This document shows, in pieces, positions 370 through 47,677 of a stretch of DNA of 64,000 bases. Under the pieces are notes generated by a model that saw only the letters and a program-made list of their open reading frames with translations, searched no databases and was not told the DNA's origin. Position numbers and translations under genes: made by a program. The first letter of the stretch is position 1, and the number at the start of each line of letters is the position of its first letter. Source of the DNA: Mustelus asterias (Eukaryota); the NCBI RefSeq assembly GCF_964213995.1, contig NC_135819.1:46934001-46998000 (forward strand). Direction: 5' to 3'.

Positions 370-947
370 GTGATATCATTTTAAACATTGACAGACAGGG
401 TGGTCAATGCACCCTTGTTGGACTCCAACTTCCTACCCCTCGGCCTTCTCTCTGCCTTCCATTGTTCGTCATTCTGCCCCATCATCTTTCCCCTCTACCT
501 TCCATTGTGCCCCCTTTCCCTTAATCTTGCACAGCCCTTCTTCCCCATTACCACAGCACTGTGCTGTGGGACATGTGCAGTCTCCATATTGGCTGACTGC
601 ACCCGGGGTTATGGACTGCAGGGGTCTTCTGCTCCTGGTGAGGACGCCGTTGTCTGTATGGACACCACTATGCTGCAGAACTCATGCAGCTGTCACTTTA
701 GCCAACTAAAAATTTGACCACAGATCGGGTGCGAGGTGACGGTGGGGCTGATGAAGTCAAGGATGGTAATGGGGAAGAAGGGCTGTGCAAGATTAAGGGG
801 AAGGGGGCACAATGGAAGGTAGAGGGGAAAGACGATGGGGCAGAATGACAAACAATGGAAGGCAGAGAGAAGGCCGAGGGGTAGGAAGTTGGAGTCCAAC
901 AAGGGTGCATTGACCACCCTGTCTGTCAATGTTTAAAATTATATCAC
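370..947. repeat. inverted repeat: 184-bp arms (370-553 / 764-947), 210-bp spacer
   Basis: Arms are reverse complements with about 4 mismatches; explains the twin ORFs 388..717(+) and 693..929(-). Confidence 0.95.
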
Positions 948-40649: not shown

Positions 40650-40707
40650 CATCCAGGAGTAATTCCTTCACCGAGTCTCGCAGCCGACCACCTCCACTTC
40701 CTTCCAT
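40650..40707 (-). CDS. COG5: COG5 coding exon 1 (MEGSGGGRLRDSVKELLLD)
   Basis: ATG at 40707 in strong Kozak context (GCCAACATGG); G|GTAAG donor; 58 nt; peptide resembles the COG5 N-terminus (MEGG...VRELLQD) and is in phase with exon 2. Confidence 0.9.
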
Positions 40708-40709
40708 GT

Positions 40710-41150
40710 TGGCGGACTAGTGACGCTCGCGCGGGGGCCTGCTGGGTCTGTTTGACGCACGCGCGGTCACGAGAGGGTGAACCGTTGGGCCCAGTGGCGG
40801 GGCTCGCGCGGCCCCGACAGCCAATCACTGAGCTTCAAATGGGGGGGCGGGGGGGCAGCTCCGGGTGCGGTACACCAAATCACAGGTGGACTTTAGGGGC
40901 GCTCCCAGGCAGCACCACCAGCCAATCACTGCGGAGCTCAGCAAAAAGCTGACAGCCAATCACAGGTGTCGAAACCGGGGAGGCGGGTGCTGCGGGTGAA
41001 GACAGCCAATCACAGGTGGACCTGGGGGACGCTCGAGGCACCGCCAACCAATCATTTATAAGAAGCGGCGGCTGAATAGCCAATCATAGGTGGGCCTGGA
41101 TTGACTGGCAGAAACGTCAGCCAATCACCGCGAGTCAGTGAGGGGGGGGC
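40710..41150. promoter_or_regulatory. bidirectional COG5/DUS4L CpG-island promoter with multiple CCAAT (NF-Y) boxes and GC boxes
   Basis: CpG-rich; CCAATCA at 40821, 40922, 40956, 41006, 41048, 41080 and 41121; GGGGCGGGG near 40844; the two ATGs are 650 bp apart on opposite strands. Confidence 0.85.
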
Positions 41151-41771: not shown

Positions 41772-42500
41772 TTTATTTATTACTGTCACAAGTAGGCTTA
41801 CATTAACACTGCAATGAAGTTACTGTGCAAATCCCCCTAGTCGTAGAATCATAGAAACCCTACAGTGCAGAAAGAGACCATCTGGCCCTTCGAGTCTGCA
41901 CCGACCACAATTCCATCCAGGCCCTACCCCCATATCCCTACACATTTACCCACTAATCCCTCTAACCTACGCATCTCGGGATGCTAAGGGGCAATTTTAG
42001 CATGGCCAATCAACCTAACCCGCACATCTTTGGACTGTGGGAGGAAACCGGAGCACCTAGAGAAAACCCATGCAGACACGAGGAGAATGAACTCCCACTC
42101 ACCTGACGAAGGAGCAATGCTCTGAAAGCTGGTGGCGTTTGCTACCAAATAAACCTGTTGGACTTTAACCTGGTGTTGTTAGACTCCTTACTGTGTAAAC
42201 TCCACACAGACAGTGGCCCAAGCCGGGAATCGAACCCAGGTCCCTGGAGCTGTGAAGCAGCAGTGCTAACCACTGTGCTACCGTGCCGCCCTCCGTCACC
42301 ACACTCCGGTGCCATTCGGGTACACTGCAGGAGAATTTAGCATGGCCAATGCACCAAACCAGCATGTGTTTTGGTCTGTGGGAGGAAACCAGAGCACCGG
42401 GGGGAAACCCACACAGACAAGGGAAAAATGTGAGATTCCGTACAGACAGTGATCCAAGCCAGGAATTGAACCCTGGCGCTGTGAGGCAGCAGTGCTGTCC
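41772..42500 (-). mobile_element. triple-nested cluster: tail-B SINE split by an HE1-like SINE (41844-42290), itself split by a Penelope terminal-repeat fragment (42091-42194, +)
   Basis: Each outer element resumes where it was interrupted; the inner piece matches 45653-45760. Confidence 0.8.
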
Positions 42501-43547: not shown

Positions 43548-43712
43548 TGGTGTTGACTTGAACTGTGGTTGTCCACAAAGGTAAGATAAAGATAAGAATT
43601 ATTCTGCTTCCATAAATGTTGGAAGTTACATTGTTTATACAAACTTAGGATCAAAAGTAGATCATTTACCCTCAAGCCTACTTTACAAATGAAAACTTGG
43701 GTGTATAGGGCA
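43548..43712 (+). repeat. 165-bp direct duplicate of 44196-44360 (end of DUS4L exon 3 plus donor and intron start)
   Basis: One mismatch seen; offset 648 bp. Confidence 0.95.
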
Positions 43713-44110: not shown

Positions 44111-44228
44111 TTGATCGTCCACTTGTTGTGCAGTTTGCTGCTAATCATGCGCAGGATCTAGCTGATGCTGCTTGCATAGTTTCTCCATTTGCAGATGGTG
44201 TTGACTTGAACTGTGGTTGTCCACAAAG
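44111..44228 (+). CDS. DUS4L: DUS4L coding exon 3 (DRPLVVQFAANHAQDLADAACIVSPFADGVDLNCGCPQ)
   Basis: CACAG acceptor and AG|GTAAG donor; 118 nt; contains the Dus active-site NxGCP motif. Confidence 0.96.
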
Positions 44229-44599
44229 GTAAGATAAAGATAAGAATTATTCTGCTTCCATAAATGTTGGAAGTTACATTGTTTATACAAACTTAGGATC
44301 AAAAGTAGATCATTTATCCTCAAGCCTACTTTACAAATGAAAACTTGGGTGTATAGGGCATTTTTCAGAACCACCAGGTGACTCAAAGCACTTTGCAACC
44401 AGTGAAGTACTTTCCAAGTGTAGTCACTATTGCAATGTAGAAAATTTAGTAACCAATATGCATGCACTCAACAAACTCCCACAAACAGCAGTGTGAAAAT
44501 AGCTATATAATCAAGTCTTGATGACCTGCACCCCAGAGATCATTCCCTGCTCTTGTTCAAAATAGTGTCATGGCAGGCAGATGGGGCCTTGGTATGTCT

Positions 44600-44900
44600 T
44601 GTTAGAATGTAACCGGTGACAACTTTGTATTGGATGTAATGTGACCAATGGGAACAAGATGTAAGGGTCAGCTGACCCAGTAAACCATGGAACCAATTAC
44701 AGAGTGATGTCATAGTCAGCTGATCCACTTTAAATAAGGAACTATGTAGAATTCTGGAGAGCTTATAGTGGCCCAGGGCAAGGCCCCAAGTTTGGAGTAA
44801 TGATGTTTCTTTATTGAACCCTTTCTTTGATTTATAAGTTGGAGTAAGTTTTGTTGTATTTTCATTAGTTGCATTTTGAAGAGTTCCTTCTGAAGAAACA
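44600..44900. mobile_element. probable solo LTR
   Basis: TGTT...AACA termini; flanking 5-mers TGTCT/TATCT; interrupts the host SINE. Confidence 0.55.
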
Positions 44901-45006
44901 TATCTCATTCAAAAGATGGCACCTGCAACAGTGCAGTGTTTTTTAAGTACTGCATTCGAGTGTCAATCTTGATTTTTGGGTTTAAGCACTGGAGTAGGAC
45001 TTTAAC

Positions 45007-45789
45007 ACAGTAAGAAGTTTAACAACACCAGGTTAAAGTCCAACAGGTTTATTTGGTAGCAAAAGCCACACAAGCTTTCGGAGCTCCAAGCCCCTTCTTC
45101 AGGTGAGTGGGAATTCTGTTCACAAACAGGGCATATAAAGACACAGACTCAATTTACATGAATAATGGTTGGAATGCGAATACTTACAGCTCATCAAGTC
45201 TTTAAGAAACAAAACAACGTGAGTGGAAAGAGCATCAAGACAGGCTAAAAAGATGTGTATTGTCTCCAGACAAGACAGCCAGTGAAACTCTGCAGGTCCA
45301 GGCAACTGTGGGGGTTACAAATAGTGTGACATGAACCCAATATCCCGGTTGAGGTTGTCCTCGTGTGTGCGGAACTTGGCTATCACGAACTTCCGCACAC
45401 ACGAGGATGGCCTCAACCGGGATATTGGGTTCATGTCACATTATTTGTAACCCCTACAGTTGCCTGGACCTGCAGAGTTTCACTGGCTGTCTTGTCTGGA
45501 GACAATACACATCTTTTTAGCCTGTCTTGATGCTCTCTCCACTCACGTTGTTTTGTTTCTTAAAGACTTGATCAGCTGTAAGTATTCGCATTCCAACCAT
45601 TATTCATGTAAATTGAGTCTGTGTCTTTATATGCCCTGTTTGTGAACAGAATTCCCACTCACCTGAAGAAGGGGCTTGGAGCTCCGAAAGCTTGTGTGGC
45701 TTTTGCTACCAAATAAACCTGTAGGACTTTAACCTGGTGTTGTTAAACTTCTTACTGTGTTTACCCCAGTCCAACGCCAGCATCTCCAC
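45007..45789. mobile_element. Penelope-like insertion with inverted terminal-repeat duplication (arms 45004-45374 / 45391-45761)
   Basis: 14-bp direct repeat AGTAGGACTTTAAC at 44993-45006 and 45790-45803; right arm encodes the GIY-YIG C-terminal FRTHEDGLNRDIGFMSHY. Confidence 0.88.
45655..45699 (+). ncRNA. minimal type-I hammerhead ribozyme motif (mirror copy on - strand at about 45066-45110)
   Basis: CAC-CTGAAGA-A-GGGGC(TTGGA)GCTCC-GAAA-GCTT-GTG: core boxes, 5-bp stem II, palindromic AAGCTT stem III, CAC/GTG stem I. Confidence 0.65.
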
Positions 45790-45932
45790 AGTAGGACTTT
45801 AACCCGGAACCCTGTGAGTGCCACCAGCTGAGCTAGAGCTGACACAATGTGTGGCCATTCAGTGAAATAATGGATGATCTGTGACGTGGTATCCCTTCAC
45901 ACCTTTGGTTAACAAAATACCACCCATCTCAT

Positions 45933-46196
45933 TGTGGTAACCCCCACACGAAGTCCATGGGGAATCGCTGATTGATCTCGCTGAGGGGCTTGTTAAGTAT
46001 GAGTTCCCCTGGTAACAGGCAGCAGTCTGCCCAGCTGGAATTCATTACCTGTGTCTTTTATAAGGCAGATCCAGGACTGGGCCTGTTGAACTGTAATCCC
46101 AGGCAGGGACTAGTGAGTGTACACCATGGTAATGGTTTTACTTTGCATTCTGTAATAAACTATGTTCCTTTCCAGTCGACTTTGTGAGTCATTACA
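45933..46196 (+). mobile_element. solo LTR (Gypsy-like)
   Basis: TGT...ACA termini, internal TATAA and AATAAA in LTR order, 5-bp TSD CTCAT/CTAAT. Confidence 0.65.
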
Positions 46197-46229
46197 CTAA
46201 TCTAGCATCAATTGCTGTTTGTGGAAGAG

Positions 46230-47000
46230 GGTTCAAAACTTATACCACCGTCTGTATACAGAGTGATTCCTAATTTCACTCCTGAAAGATCTAGCTCTAA
46301 TCTTTAGACAATGACCGCAGTCCTAGATTTCCCAACTAGCAGAAATAGTTTTGATCAAAGCACCCCTTAACCCTCTAAATTCCAGGAAATATATCCAAGC
46401 TTGTATACTCTTTCTGTAATTTCACCCATGGAGTTCAAATACTGCACCCTCTCCAAAGTCAATATAACCTTCCTTAGGTATATGTCAAAACTTCTCACAG
46501 TACTCCAAGTGTGGTCTCACCAGAGTTTTGTGTAGCTGAGGCATGATTTCTGCTCCCATTATGTTCTCCCTTTCTAGATATAAAGGCCAACATTCCATCA
46601 GCCTTTCGGATTATTTTCTATATCTGCTCATGACATGTCTATGACCTATGCATTCAGCCTCATCAGTCATTTTGTCCCCACCCCACAGTTTCAAACTTTT
46701 CACCTTGAGAAAGCACTCTGTTCCATTCTTTCAGATTGAATGACCTCAGATATGCCTACATTGAAATACATTATCAGTTTTGCCCATTCAGTACCTTTTT
46801 GTGATATTACGTTTCCATTGACATCGCTTGCAATGCTACCTGTCTTTGTGTCATAGGCTAATTGGATATGTGGCTTTCTGTCTTATCATCTAAGAAGTCA
46901 ATAAATCCAATGAATTGTTGAGACCCAAAGTAAATATTCAGCTGGTCCACCATTTCCTAAGTTTCATTGACACTATCAGTATTATTAGTTTTTAATGGGC
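46230..47000 (-). mobile_element. decayed CR1 fragment
   Basis: Reverse-strand RT remnants (VRPHLEY-like at about 46500-46520). Confidence 0.55.
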
Positions 47001-47307
47001 CGAGATTGTTCCTGGCCACCCTCTCTTTTTCCCCCAAAGGATTGTAAAAAAATGTTTCTGTTGATTTTGAAACTGAGTTTTTTTCTCATATTTGTTTTAT
47101 CACCCTTTGCTGTTATTTGTATCTCGTCTGCTCACCAGGATCTGTGCCCTTTTTGCAATTTTTTTATGCTGCTTCTTTTAGTTTTGTCTTTTGTCATTTT
47201 ACCATTTCTTTGCGCTTTGCTTCCTATTGTATATAAATGTAATTTTAGTTCTAGATGAAACATCTTTGTGTAAGAACTACTACTTTTCTTTAATGTTTGT
47301 CTATGCT

Positions 47308-47469
47308 TTTTCACCTTGAGAAAGCACTCTGTTCCATTCTTTCAGATTGAATGACCTCGGATATGCCTACATTGAAATACATTATCAGTTTTGCCCATTC
47401 AGTACCTTTTTGTGATATTACGTTTCCATTGACATCGCTTGCAATGCTACCTGTCTTTGTGTCATAGGC
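47308..47469 (+). repeat. 162-bp direct duplicate of 46697-46858
   Basis: One mismatch seen; offset 611 bp. Confidence 0.95.
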
Positions 47470-47554
47470 AATCCTGTGAGCCACATCTAGCAATAGTTAT
47501 TTAACAAATTGCTAATATTGCAATATGCATGTTGTATATTAAATTTTTTTGCAG

Positions 47555-47677
47555 GTGGGCAATGGCAGAAGGATATGGCGCTTGTCTAATAAATAAACCA
47601 GAACTGGTTCAGGACATGGTGCGTCAGGTCAAGAATCAAGTGGAGTGTCCTAACTTTTCAGTCTCCATTAAGATAAG
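47555..47677 (+). CDS. DUS4L: DUS4L coding exon 4 (WAMAEGYGACLINKPELVQDMVRQVKNQVECPNFSVSIKI)
   Basis: TTTTGCAG acceptor and AG|GTAAAT donor; 123 nt. Confidence 0.96.

What the first reader, a model, noticed from the sequence alone, without database searches (positions are those of the whole stretch)
44993..45803. TSD-flanked Penelope-like palindrome with a hammerhead motif on each strand, inside DUS4L intron 3
Seen: 371-bp arms (45004-45374 / 45391-45761, about 8 mismatches, 16-nt spacer) flanked by a 14-bp direct repeat. Each arm holds an intact CTGAAGA/stem II/GAAA/GCTT motif. Established: Penelope-like elements often carry inverted terminal repeats and minimal type-I hammerheads whose palindromic stem III needs a dimer. 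Inference: the DUS4L pre-mRNA contains one sense ribozyme (predicted cut after 45693) together with its antisense copy. It should fold into a roughly 370-bp hairpin that masks the ribozyme and could be an ADAR or Dicer substrate, i.e. a self-silenced ribozyme insertion in a housekeeping gene.
Basis: partly seen in the sequence, partly recalled or inferred. Interest (0 to 1): 0.7.

Follow-up and report, generated by a model that had tools for sequence, protein, structure and literature searches.

The report
Mirror-image Penelope retrotransposon stump, shark intron
This DNA palindrome in an intron of a shark's DUS4L gene is two back-to-back broken ends of a very abundant Penelope-type jumping gene, laid out like thousands of sister insertions, and its two hammerhead motifs are likely passive passengers that would be locked in a long RNA hairpin.

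Summary
In detail: 371-bp arms with 8 mismatches, a 16-nt spacer, an exact 14-bp target duplication, a minimal hammerhead motif on each strand, inside coding intron 3 of DUS4L. It is a 5'-truncated, head-to-head insertion of a young Penelope-like retrotransposon (RT + GIY-YIG, Neptune/Nematis-type linker). The same 34-nt hammerhead motif occurs 11,293 times in this genome; 20 of the first 100 listed places pair head-to-head, and 20 of the 30 closest copies share this layout (inverted tail-less arm, tailed sense arm; 11-14-bp duplications). A relative's contig shows the empty site. The layout, opposite-strand hammerhead pairs and weak ribozyme activity are published for this class. A hairpin masking the ribozyme is predicted (-717 kcal/mol), but follows from any such insertion; nothing points to a host function, and editing or small RNA could not be tested. 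Family-level extras: a TG-N16-CA target preference (22 of 34 sites; this site matches 3 of 4 bases) and arms that share alleles (20 of 20), fitting a two-strand cut with double priming. The scan found this family pattern before at other loci of this genome. Ordinary; low interest.

The parts
44993..45006 (.). Left copy of the 14-bp target-site duplication
   Evidence: Identical to 45790-45803; family duplications are 11-14 bp in 34 of 37 inverted insertions
44990..44991 (+). Left half (TG) of the family's preferred TG-N16-CA target; the right half at 45805-45806 matches one base of two
   Evidence: 22 of 34 rebuilt sites match all four bases against 10 of 204 shifted controls; this site scores 3 of 4, centred on the duplication
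45004..45385 (-). Inverted, 5'-truncated, tail-less copy of the element's 3' end; its outer 3-4 bases overlap the duplication
   Evidence: 97% identical to another genomic copy; stops 28 nt short of the tail end
45069..45105 (-). Minimal hammerhead motif of the inverted arm; antisense in DUS4L pre-mRNA
   Evidence: Identical to the right-arm motif
45375..45390 (.). 16-nt spacer: about 11 nt of extra inverted-arm sequence plus a few bases at the joint of the two arms
   Evidence: Sequence; arm starts differ by 8 positions on the reference copy
45391..45789 (+). Sense, 5'-truncated copy: last codons of the GIY-YIG endonuclease (stop at 45448-45450), 3' repeat, hammerhead, tail
   Evidence: Translation matches the C-terminus of the RT + GIY-YIG frame of copy L033
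45660..45696 (+). Minimal type-I hammerhead motif, sense in DUS4L pre-mRNA; predicted cut after 45693
   Evidence: Core 45663-45669 and 45686-45692, stem II 45671-75/45681-85, stem I 45660-62/45694-96; core positions differ in 6 of 1034 aligned cells against 89 of 658 at free positions
45762..45789 (+). One-sided Penelope 'tail', present on the sense arm only
   Evidence: 33 of 37 inverted arms end 24-35 nt short of the tail anchor; 30-40-bp one-sided tail described in PMC8557442, PMC3846280, PMC11167929
45790..45803 (.). Right copy of the 14-bp target-site duplication
   Evidence: a contig of organism D joins the two flanks without the insert (record 13)
44229..47554 (+). Host intron: coding intron 3 of DUS4L (between exons 44111-44228 and 47555-47677)
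   Evidence: tblastn of a shark DUS4L-like protein and splice dinucleotides

Best explanation
This is a dead, 5'-truncated, head-to-head insertion of a high-copy Penelope-like retrotransposon in DUS4L intron 3, likely made when the element's endonuclease cut both target strands about 12-14 bases apart and both ends primed copying of the element's RNA, and its hammerheads are likely passengers without a host function. Shown: structure, family identity, copy number, target duplication, one-sided tail, target preference, allele sharing between arms, empty site in a relative. Inferred: (1) a symmetric, probably dimeric cut at a TG-N16-CA-like site; (2) one target end primes at the tail end and gives the sense arm, the other primes about 30 nt upstream and gives the tail-less inverted arm; (3) both copies come from the same template and stop early, here about 400 nt in, and are joined with a few extra bases; (4) gap filling leaves the 14-bp duplication; (5) when DUS4L is transcribed the antisense arm comes first and is predicted to pair with the sense arm over about 370 bp, leaving the ribozyme unfolded and offering a generic double-stranded substrate for editing in an intron that is spliced out.
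For: Arms encode the end of a frame that in longer copies carries RT (PF00078, E 4e-11) and GIY-YIG (PF01541, E 8e-4, below cut-off). Motif count 11,293, reversed-pattern control 0. Of 100 listed places, 21 neighbour pairs lie within 3 kb (0.9 expected), 20 of them head-to-head, none tail-to-tail; a loop allele agrees in 20 of 20 such pairs against 33 of 78 distant neighbours. 20 of the 30 best-matching copies, this one included, carry an inverted arm; 33 of 37 inverted arms end 24-35 nt before the tail anchor; 34 of 37 have an 11-14-bp duplication. Either arm can be the longer one, which two separate priming events explain. TG-N16-CA at 22 of 34 sites against 10 of 204 controls. A purified PLE protein cuts and extends both strands, starts at two sites that bracket the tail and is modelled as a dimer (PMC11167929). 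Empty site in organism D.
Against: The double-priming route is not proven: 12 of 37 insertions, this one included, have arms that start within 15 nt of each other, which fold-back self-priming, as proposed in PMC3846280, explains equally well, and later deletion of palindrome centres could create unequal arms. Allele sharing could also come from gene conversion. PMC11167929 reports an AT-rich cut preference for a Poseidon element, unlike the motif seen here. No listed contig spans the centre or the left junction of this locus, and the right-junction contigs hold only 24 element bases, under the tool's 31-base rule. 5 of the 8 arm mismatches are G-U wobbles in the pre-mRNA strand, a faint hint of hairpin retention, but 5 of 6 transitions is within chance.
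Confidence: 0.85

Rival explanations
1. Same dead Penelope insertion, but formed by fold-back: one cDNA turned on itself and copied back, and the hairpin was resolved about 30 nt short of the tail.
For: Near-equal arms in 12 of 37 insertions; shared alleles 20 of 20; many short palindromes centre on natural near-palindromes of the element (listings); self-priming proposed in PMC3846280.
Against: Insertions whose tail-less arm is hundreds of bases longer than the tailed arm (L002, L006, L020, L021, L034) need an extra deletion step; the fixed tail-less end matches a second RT start site shown in vitro (PMC11167929); the target motif is two-fold symmetric.
Confidence: 0.25
2. The insertion has been co-opted: the hairpin keeps the ribozyme off and, when edited or unwound, lets it cut or otherwise regulates DUS4L.
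For: Both motifs are intact and the sense one faces the gene's direction; the hairpin is very stable; an older sense copy of the motif lies in intron 2.
Against: Any head-to-head copy gives this arrangement; about 2,200 such pairs are expected from exact matches alone (20 per 100 of 11,293); the insertion is absent in a relative; intact motifs are the norm in this young family; arm divergence is typical; the intron-2 copy has a G at the cut position, which by general knowledge is not cleaved; metazoan minimal hammerheads cut poorly (PMC4209133).
Confidence: 0.04
3. The palindrome is a fold-back sequencing or assembly artefact.
For: No listed contig spans the whole insert, its centre or its left junction.
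Against: Arms differ at 8 sites, some at known family polymorphisms; the tail is one-sided; an exact 14-bp duplication frames it at a family-typical target; flanks are not mirrored; dozens of other loci show the same design; the two flanks are joined directly in a relative.
Confidence: 0.02

Closest known systems
Insertions of endonuclease-bearing Penelope-like elements: inverted 5'-truncated copy, one-sided 30-40-bp tail, target duplication (PMC8557442 passages; PMC3846280 passages)
   Same: Head-to-head inverted copy, tail on one side only, short target duplication, heavy 5' truncation.
   Different: Here both copies are short stumps (about 400 nt) with nearly equal arms; duplications are 11-14 bp against the 8-10 bp quoted for Adineta; no full-length frame in this insertion.
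Neptune/Nematis clades of C-terminal EN+ PLEs (clade features as in PMC8557442)
   Same: RT, then a CX4CXXC linker, then a GIY-YIG-type domain in copy L033.
   Different: No phylogeny was built, so Neptune and Nematis are not told apart; the sampled targets are not microsatellites but fit TG-N16-CA.
Minimal type-I hammerheads of metazoan PLEs (PMC4209133, parts 1-2 of 4 read)
   Same: Conserved core, one extra base before stem II, G10.1-C11.1 pair, palindromic 15.2-16.2 without loop 3, short stem I; that paper also notes dual motifs 100-700 bp apart on opposite strands (here 561 bp).
   Different: Stem II is 5-6 bp, shorter than the 7-8 bp given for Schistosoma; the cut base is U; sharks did not turn up in my paper searches.
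Poseidon element of Anolis in vitro (PMC11167929, parts 1-2 of 4 read)
   Same: Two RT start sites bracketing the tail, both strands cut and extended, dimer model: matches the two arm ends seen here.
   Different: Different clade; AT-rich cut preference; that paper does not, in the parts read, derive the inverted arm from the second start site.
Inverted Alu pairs in primate introns (recalled, no call)
   Same: Two opposed repeat copies in one intron form long double-stranded RNA that editing enzymes can act on.
   Different: Alu pairs come from two separate insertions and are far less perfect; here one event gives a 98% hairpin.

Membership tests
EN+ Penelope-like element | Single frame with RT followed by a C-terminal GIY-YIG endonuclease in family members | tested here: met
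   L032 572-aa frame RT E 4e-11; L033 frame RT E 8e-6 and GIY-YIG E 8e-4 (below Pfam cut-off), ending in the peptide that the arms encode
EN+ Penelope-like element | Inverted 5'-truncated copy next to the sense copy, with a 30-40-bp tail on one side | tested here: met
   This locus: tail 45762-45789; 33 of 37 inverted arms end 24-35 nt short
EN+ Penelope-like element | Short target-site duplication and an empty site | tested here: met
   14 bp exact; empty site in organism D, 184 and 281 contig bases on the two sides
EN+ Penelope-like element | Partial-tandem pseudo-LTR ahead of a full-length frame | not tested
   No full-length copy was among the 50 loci fetched; the three longest examined were truncated or broken
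EN+ Penelope-like element | RT groups with PLE/telomerase RTs in a tree | not tested
   No tree built; PDB sequence search gave no hit
Neptune/Nematis clades | CX2-5CXXC zinc-finger-like linker between RT and EN (absent in Penelope/Poseidon) | tested here: met
   CX4CXXC at residue 192 of the L033 frame; definition from PMC8557442
Minimal type-I hammerhead ribozyme | Conserved catalytic core, stem II with G10.1-C11.1, palindromic stem III, cleavable triplet | tested here: met
   Sequence and pairing; core 6 of 1034 differences against 89 of 658 at free positions over 94 copies
Minimal type-I hammerhead ribozyme | Stems kept by compensatory change | tested here: inconclusive
   94% of 85 cells paired in 11 sequences, above all slid controls (28-57%) but not above shuffles (107 of 500); one pair with two-sided change
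Minimal type-I hammerhead ribozyme | Match to an Rfam hammerhead model | tested here: not met
   No hammerhead family at E<=10; expected for a motif lacking helix III, so this lowers only the database assignment
Minimal type-I hammerhead ribozyme | Self-cleavage | not testable with these tools
   Needs an in vitro assay; the free monomer's lowest-energy fold is not the active one (-14.1 against -10.7 kcal/mol)
Edited or diced intronic inverted repeat | A-to-G edits or small RNAs over the arms | not testable with these tools
   No RNA run of this locus with raw reads was available

The most novel reading that the evidence does not exclude
This shark Neptune-type family records a sequence-selective, two-fold symmetric integration: a dimeric endonuclease cuts TG-N16-CA about 12 bases apart and both ends prime from the element's two start sites on one RNA, stamping out thousands of near-perfect palindromes; those in introns would be the shark's main source of long double-stranded RNA, a one-step counterpart of inverted Alu pairs. 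This locus would be one clean example, not a special one.
Probability: 0.45. Interest if true: 0.5.

Novelty: new member of a known kind. Interest (0 to 1): 0.18.

Why it matters
The locus itself matters little: it is one of thousands of like insertions and shows no sign of host use. The family is more useful. Its many young, cleanly framed copies let one read the Penelope integration reaction from the genome (cut geometry, target preference, two priming sites), a step the literature read here calls undefined, and they predict a large load of perfect intronic hairpins whose editing could be measured in shark RNA. Neither point depends on this copy.

Tried and rejected
Rfam scan: no hammerhead hit. 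PDB sequence search with the L033 frame: no hit. Sequencing runs: no RNA holder listed, so expression, editing and small RNA stay untested. Laying contigs on the left junction and centre (runs X1, X3, X8, X9) showed no cover at 44952-44995 and no listed piece across the spacer; the tool filters records, so this is no finding. Organism B's contig stops matching at the first base of the right duplication (record 18), as an empty site would, but its other side is not listed. Right-junction contigs in X1 (0 differences) and X9 (5 differences, 2 gaps) carry only 24 element bases and do not count as bridging. Idea that the site was chosen by homology (the duplication resembles 45721-45734 inside the element, and the right arm has the target's base at 45723): the other sampled duplications show no such likeness on inspection and one other copy has the same base, so I treat it as coincidence. 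Lead that stumps pile up at the ribozyme cut: palindromes centred within 8 nt of the predicted cut number 417, against 495 at a control point 18 nt downstream, so raw counts show no excess; 41 of 100 arm ends in the first 50 listed loci sit exactly at the cut, but the matching tally for the control was not done, so that figure has no control; read by eye, most control centres fall in one class at a natural near-palindrome, which blurs the comparison. Selection on the hairpin: 5 of 8 mismatches are wobbles, not distinguishable from chance. Dropped rows: 3 of 37 inverted insertions without a duplication of 10 bp or more (L019, L024, L038) were left out of the target-motif count; 17 of the 20 listed pairs were fetched. 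Paper searches for the target motif, for twin priming in Penelope and for shark Penelope hammerheads (listings only) gave nothing direct; the library lacks most subscription journals, and no supplements were read.

Full report
Observation. The palindrome is as described. Arms 45004-45377 and 45388-45761 are 98% complementary; 8 mismatches lie in the 371-bp core, with a 16-nt spacer, and 44993-45006 equals 45790-45803. The arms fold as RNA at -717 kcal/mol, z -78 against 20 shuffles. The right side carries 28 further bases, 45762-45789, with no partner on the left. The host gene is on the + strand: Pfam Dus hits at four places in this window, a 99% match of one exon to a catshark tRNA-dihydrouridine(20a/20b) synthase-like protein, six exons by tblastn, and intron 44229-47554 by splice dinucleotides. 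The insert is in coding intron 3.

What it is. The inner ends of both arms translate to the same short peptide and stop. That peptide ends the long frame of copy L033, which has an RT match, a YIDD motif, a CX4CXXC linker and a GIY-YIG match; copy L032 has a 572-aa RT frame (E 4e-11). RT followed by GIY-YIG defines endonuclease-bearing Penelope-like elements, and the linker marks the Neptune and Nematis clades (PMC8557442, passages). No tree was built. Each arm is thus the last 370-400 nt of such an element.

How common. A DNA search of the own genome gave 2,469 candidates, the 40 scored being 96-100% identical. The exact 34-nt hammerhead motif, with one two-way position, occurs 5,679 + 5,614 times; the reversed control 0. 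Among the first 100 listed places, all on contig C1, 21 neighbour pairs lie within 3 kb where 0.9 are expected; 20 are head-to-head like this one and none tail-to-tail. Scaled up, that is about 2,200 pairs from exact matches alone. Of the 30 best-matching loci, 20 have an inverted arm (three after extending the flank), and so do all 17 pairs fetched of the 20 listed. In 33 of these 37 the inverted arm ends 24-35 nt short of the tail anchor, and 34 have an 11-14-bp duplication. This layout is the published norm: an inverted 5'-truncated copy and a one-sided 30-40-bp tail (PMC8557442, passages), framed by a short duplication (PMC3846280, passages); dual hammerheads 100-700 bp apart on opposite strands were noted in PMC4209133 (parts 1-2 of 4).

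Real, and recent. A contig of organism D joins 44817-45010 to 45816-46095 with about 10 bases between (record 13): the empty site. Contigs of this organism and of organism C begin 24 bases inside the tail and run into the right flank, too short to count as bridging; the centre and left junction were not seen in listed contigs, which the tool says proves nothing. Differences between the arms, the one-sided tail and the exact duplication are not what a fold-back chimera gives. Arm divergence here is 8 of 354 compared bases; the family mean is 1.6% within a locus and 2.4% between loci.

How it likely formed. After a lead from earlier notes I tested the target: 22 of 34 rebuilt sites have TG-N16-CA centred on the duplication against 10 of 204 shifted controls; other spacings from 10 to 22 reach at most 6 of 34; this site has 3 of the 4 bases. 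A two-way loop allele agrees between arms in 20 of 20 pairs against 33 of 78 distant neighbours, and some loci share variants seen in no other sampled copy, so both arms come from one template or were homogenised. A purified Poseidon protein cuts and extends both strands, starts at two RNA sites that bracket the tail, and is modelled as a dimer (PMC11167929, parts 1-2 of 4). The simplest reading (inference) is a symmetric staggered cut, each end priming at one of the two start sites, early stop, and end joining in the middle. Either arm can be the longer, as this predicts. Against it, 12 of 37 insertions have arms starting within 15 nt of each other, which fold-back self-priming (PMC3846280) also explains; a shared broken 5' end of the RNA would reconcile the two.

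The ribozyme. The motif has the parts listed for metazoan minimal hammerheads: core, extra base, G10.1-C11.1, palindromic stem III, short stem I. Over 94 copies, 10 of them from older subfamilies, core positions differ in 6 of 1034 cells, stem II in 22 of 940 and free positions in 89 of 658, so the element lineage has kept it. Pairing in 11 sequences is 94%, above slid controls but not above shuffles. Rfam does not find it. Such motifs showed no cleavage as monomers and little as dimers (PMC4209133), or needed the element's protein, and were dispensable for insertion in vitro (PMC11167929). In the pre-mRNA strand the predicted fold pairs 46 of 46 bases of the motif region with the left arm; the sense-antisense duplex of the 56-nt motif is -115.5 kcal/mol against -39.5 for two sense copies together and -14.1 for one alone; the hairpin has unbroken helices of 149 and 146 bp. 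Masking is therefore well predicted, but it is automatic for any head-to-head copy in any transcribed region. A test of whether sister stumps pile up at the cut site was inconclusive.

Function. Nothing indicates a role for DUS4L. The insert is lineage-restricted, typical in layout and divergence, and intronic. Editing of so long a duplex is likely on general knowledge of ADAR (recalled) if it forms before splicing, but no suitable RNA data were available, and an edited intronic hairpin would still be a by-product.

Novelty and verdict. A new member of a known kind. My searches (listings, plus passages of PMC6155905 and bioRxiv 10.64898/2026.07.22.740005) found no paper on shark Penelope hammerheads, on this target motif or on double priming in Penelope; the library is partial and no supplements were read. 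Earlier notes of this scan report the same family pattern at other loci of this genome. Interest 0.18 for the locus; the family-level mechanism would merit about 0.5 if shown.

Noticed in passing
window 42089-42204: An older (84% identical) 5'-truncated, tail-less stump of the same family, sense to DUS4L, in intron 2, seemingly inside another repeat; its hammerhead has G at the cut position and G-U at the base of stem II, so likely dead.
   Followed up: partly
window 43548-43712 and 44196-44360: 165-nt direct repeat, 99% identical: the 3' end of DUS4L coding exon 3 with its splice donor and the start of intron 3 is copied 648 nt upstream into intron 2; a possible decoy donor or repair-templated copy.
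   Followed up: no
window 46697-46858 and 47308-47469: A second local duplication, 162 nt, 99% identical, 611 nt apart, in the same intron 3.
   Followed up: no
window about 44570-45850: The insert sits in a decayed repeat that looks like a tRNA-derived Deu-domain SINE on the - strand (label recalled, not tested); that repeat is itself interrupted by a roughly 300-bp high-copy segment at about 44600-44900 with TG...CA ends, possibly a solo LTR.
   Followed up: no
window 44994-45007, 45721-45734, 45791-45804: The target duplication closely resembles a stretch inside the element's own 3' end, and the right arm carries the target's base at 45723, found in 2 of 47 sense copies; treated as coincidence.
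   Followed up: partly
window about 40650-40710 (- strand) and 40820-41130: A likely first coding exon of a divergent neighbour gene (COG5 by recalled synteny, untested) and a GC-rich shared promoter with about six CCAAT-box-like repeats.
   Followed up: no
window 370-553 and 764-947: Another inverted repeat, 184 bp, 98% complementary, not matching the Penelope end.
   Followed up: no
protein hits P0002, P0003, P0005 and others: Many vertebrate database entries fuse DUS4L with BCAP29 domains, including sharks and rays: a widespread read-through annotation.
   Followed up: no
L038 (G000:C1:7206000-7209500): An inverted pair with a tail on both ends and no clear duplication, the one exception among 37.
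   Followed up: no
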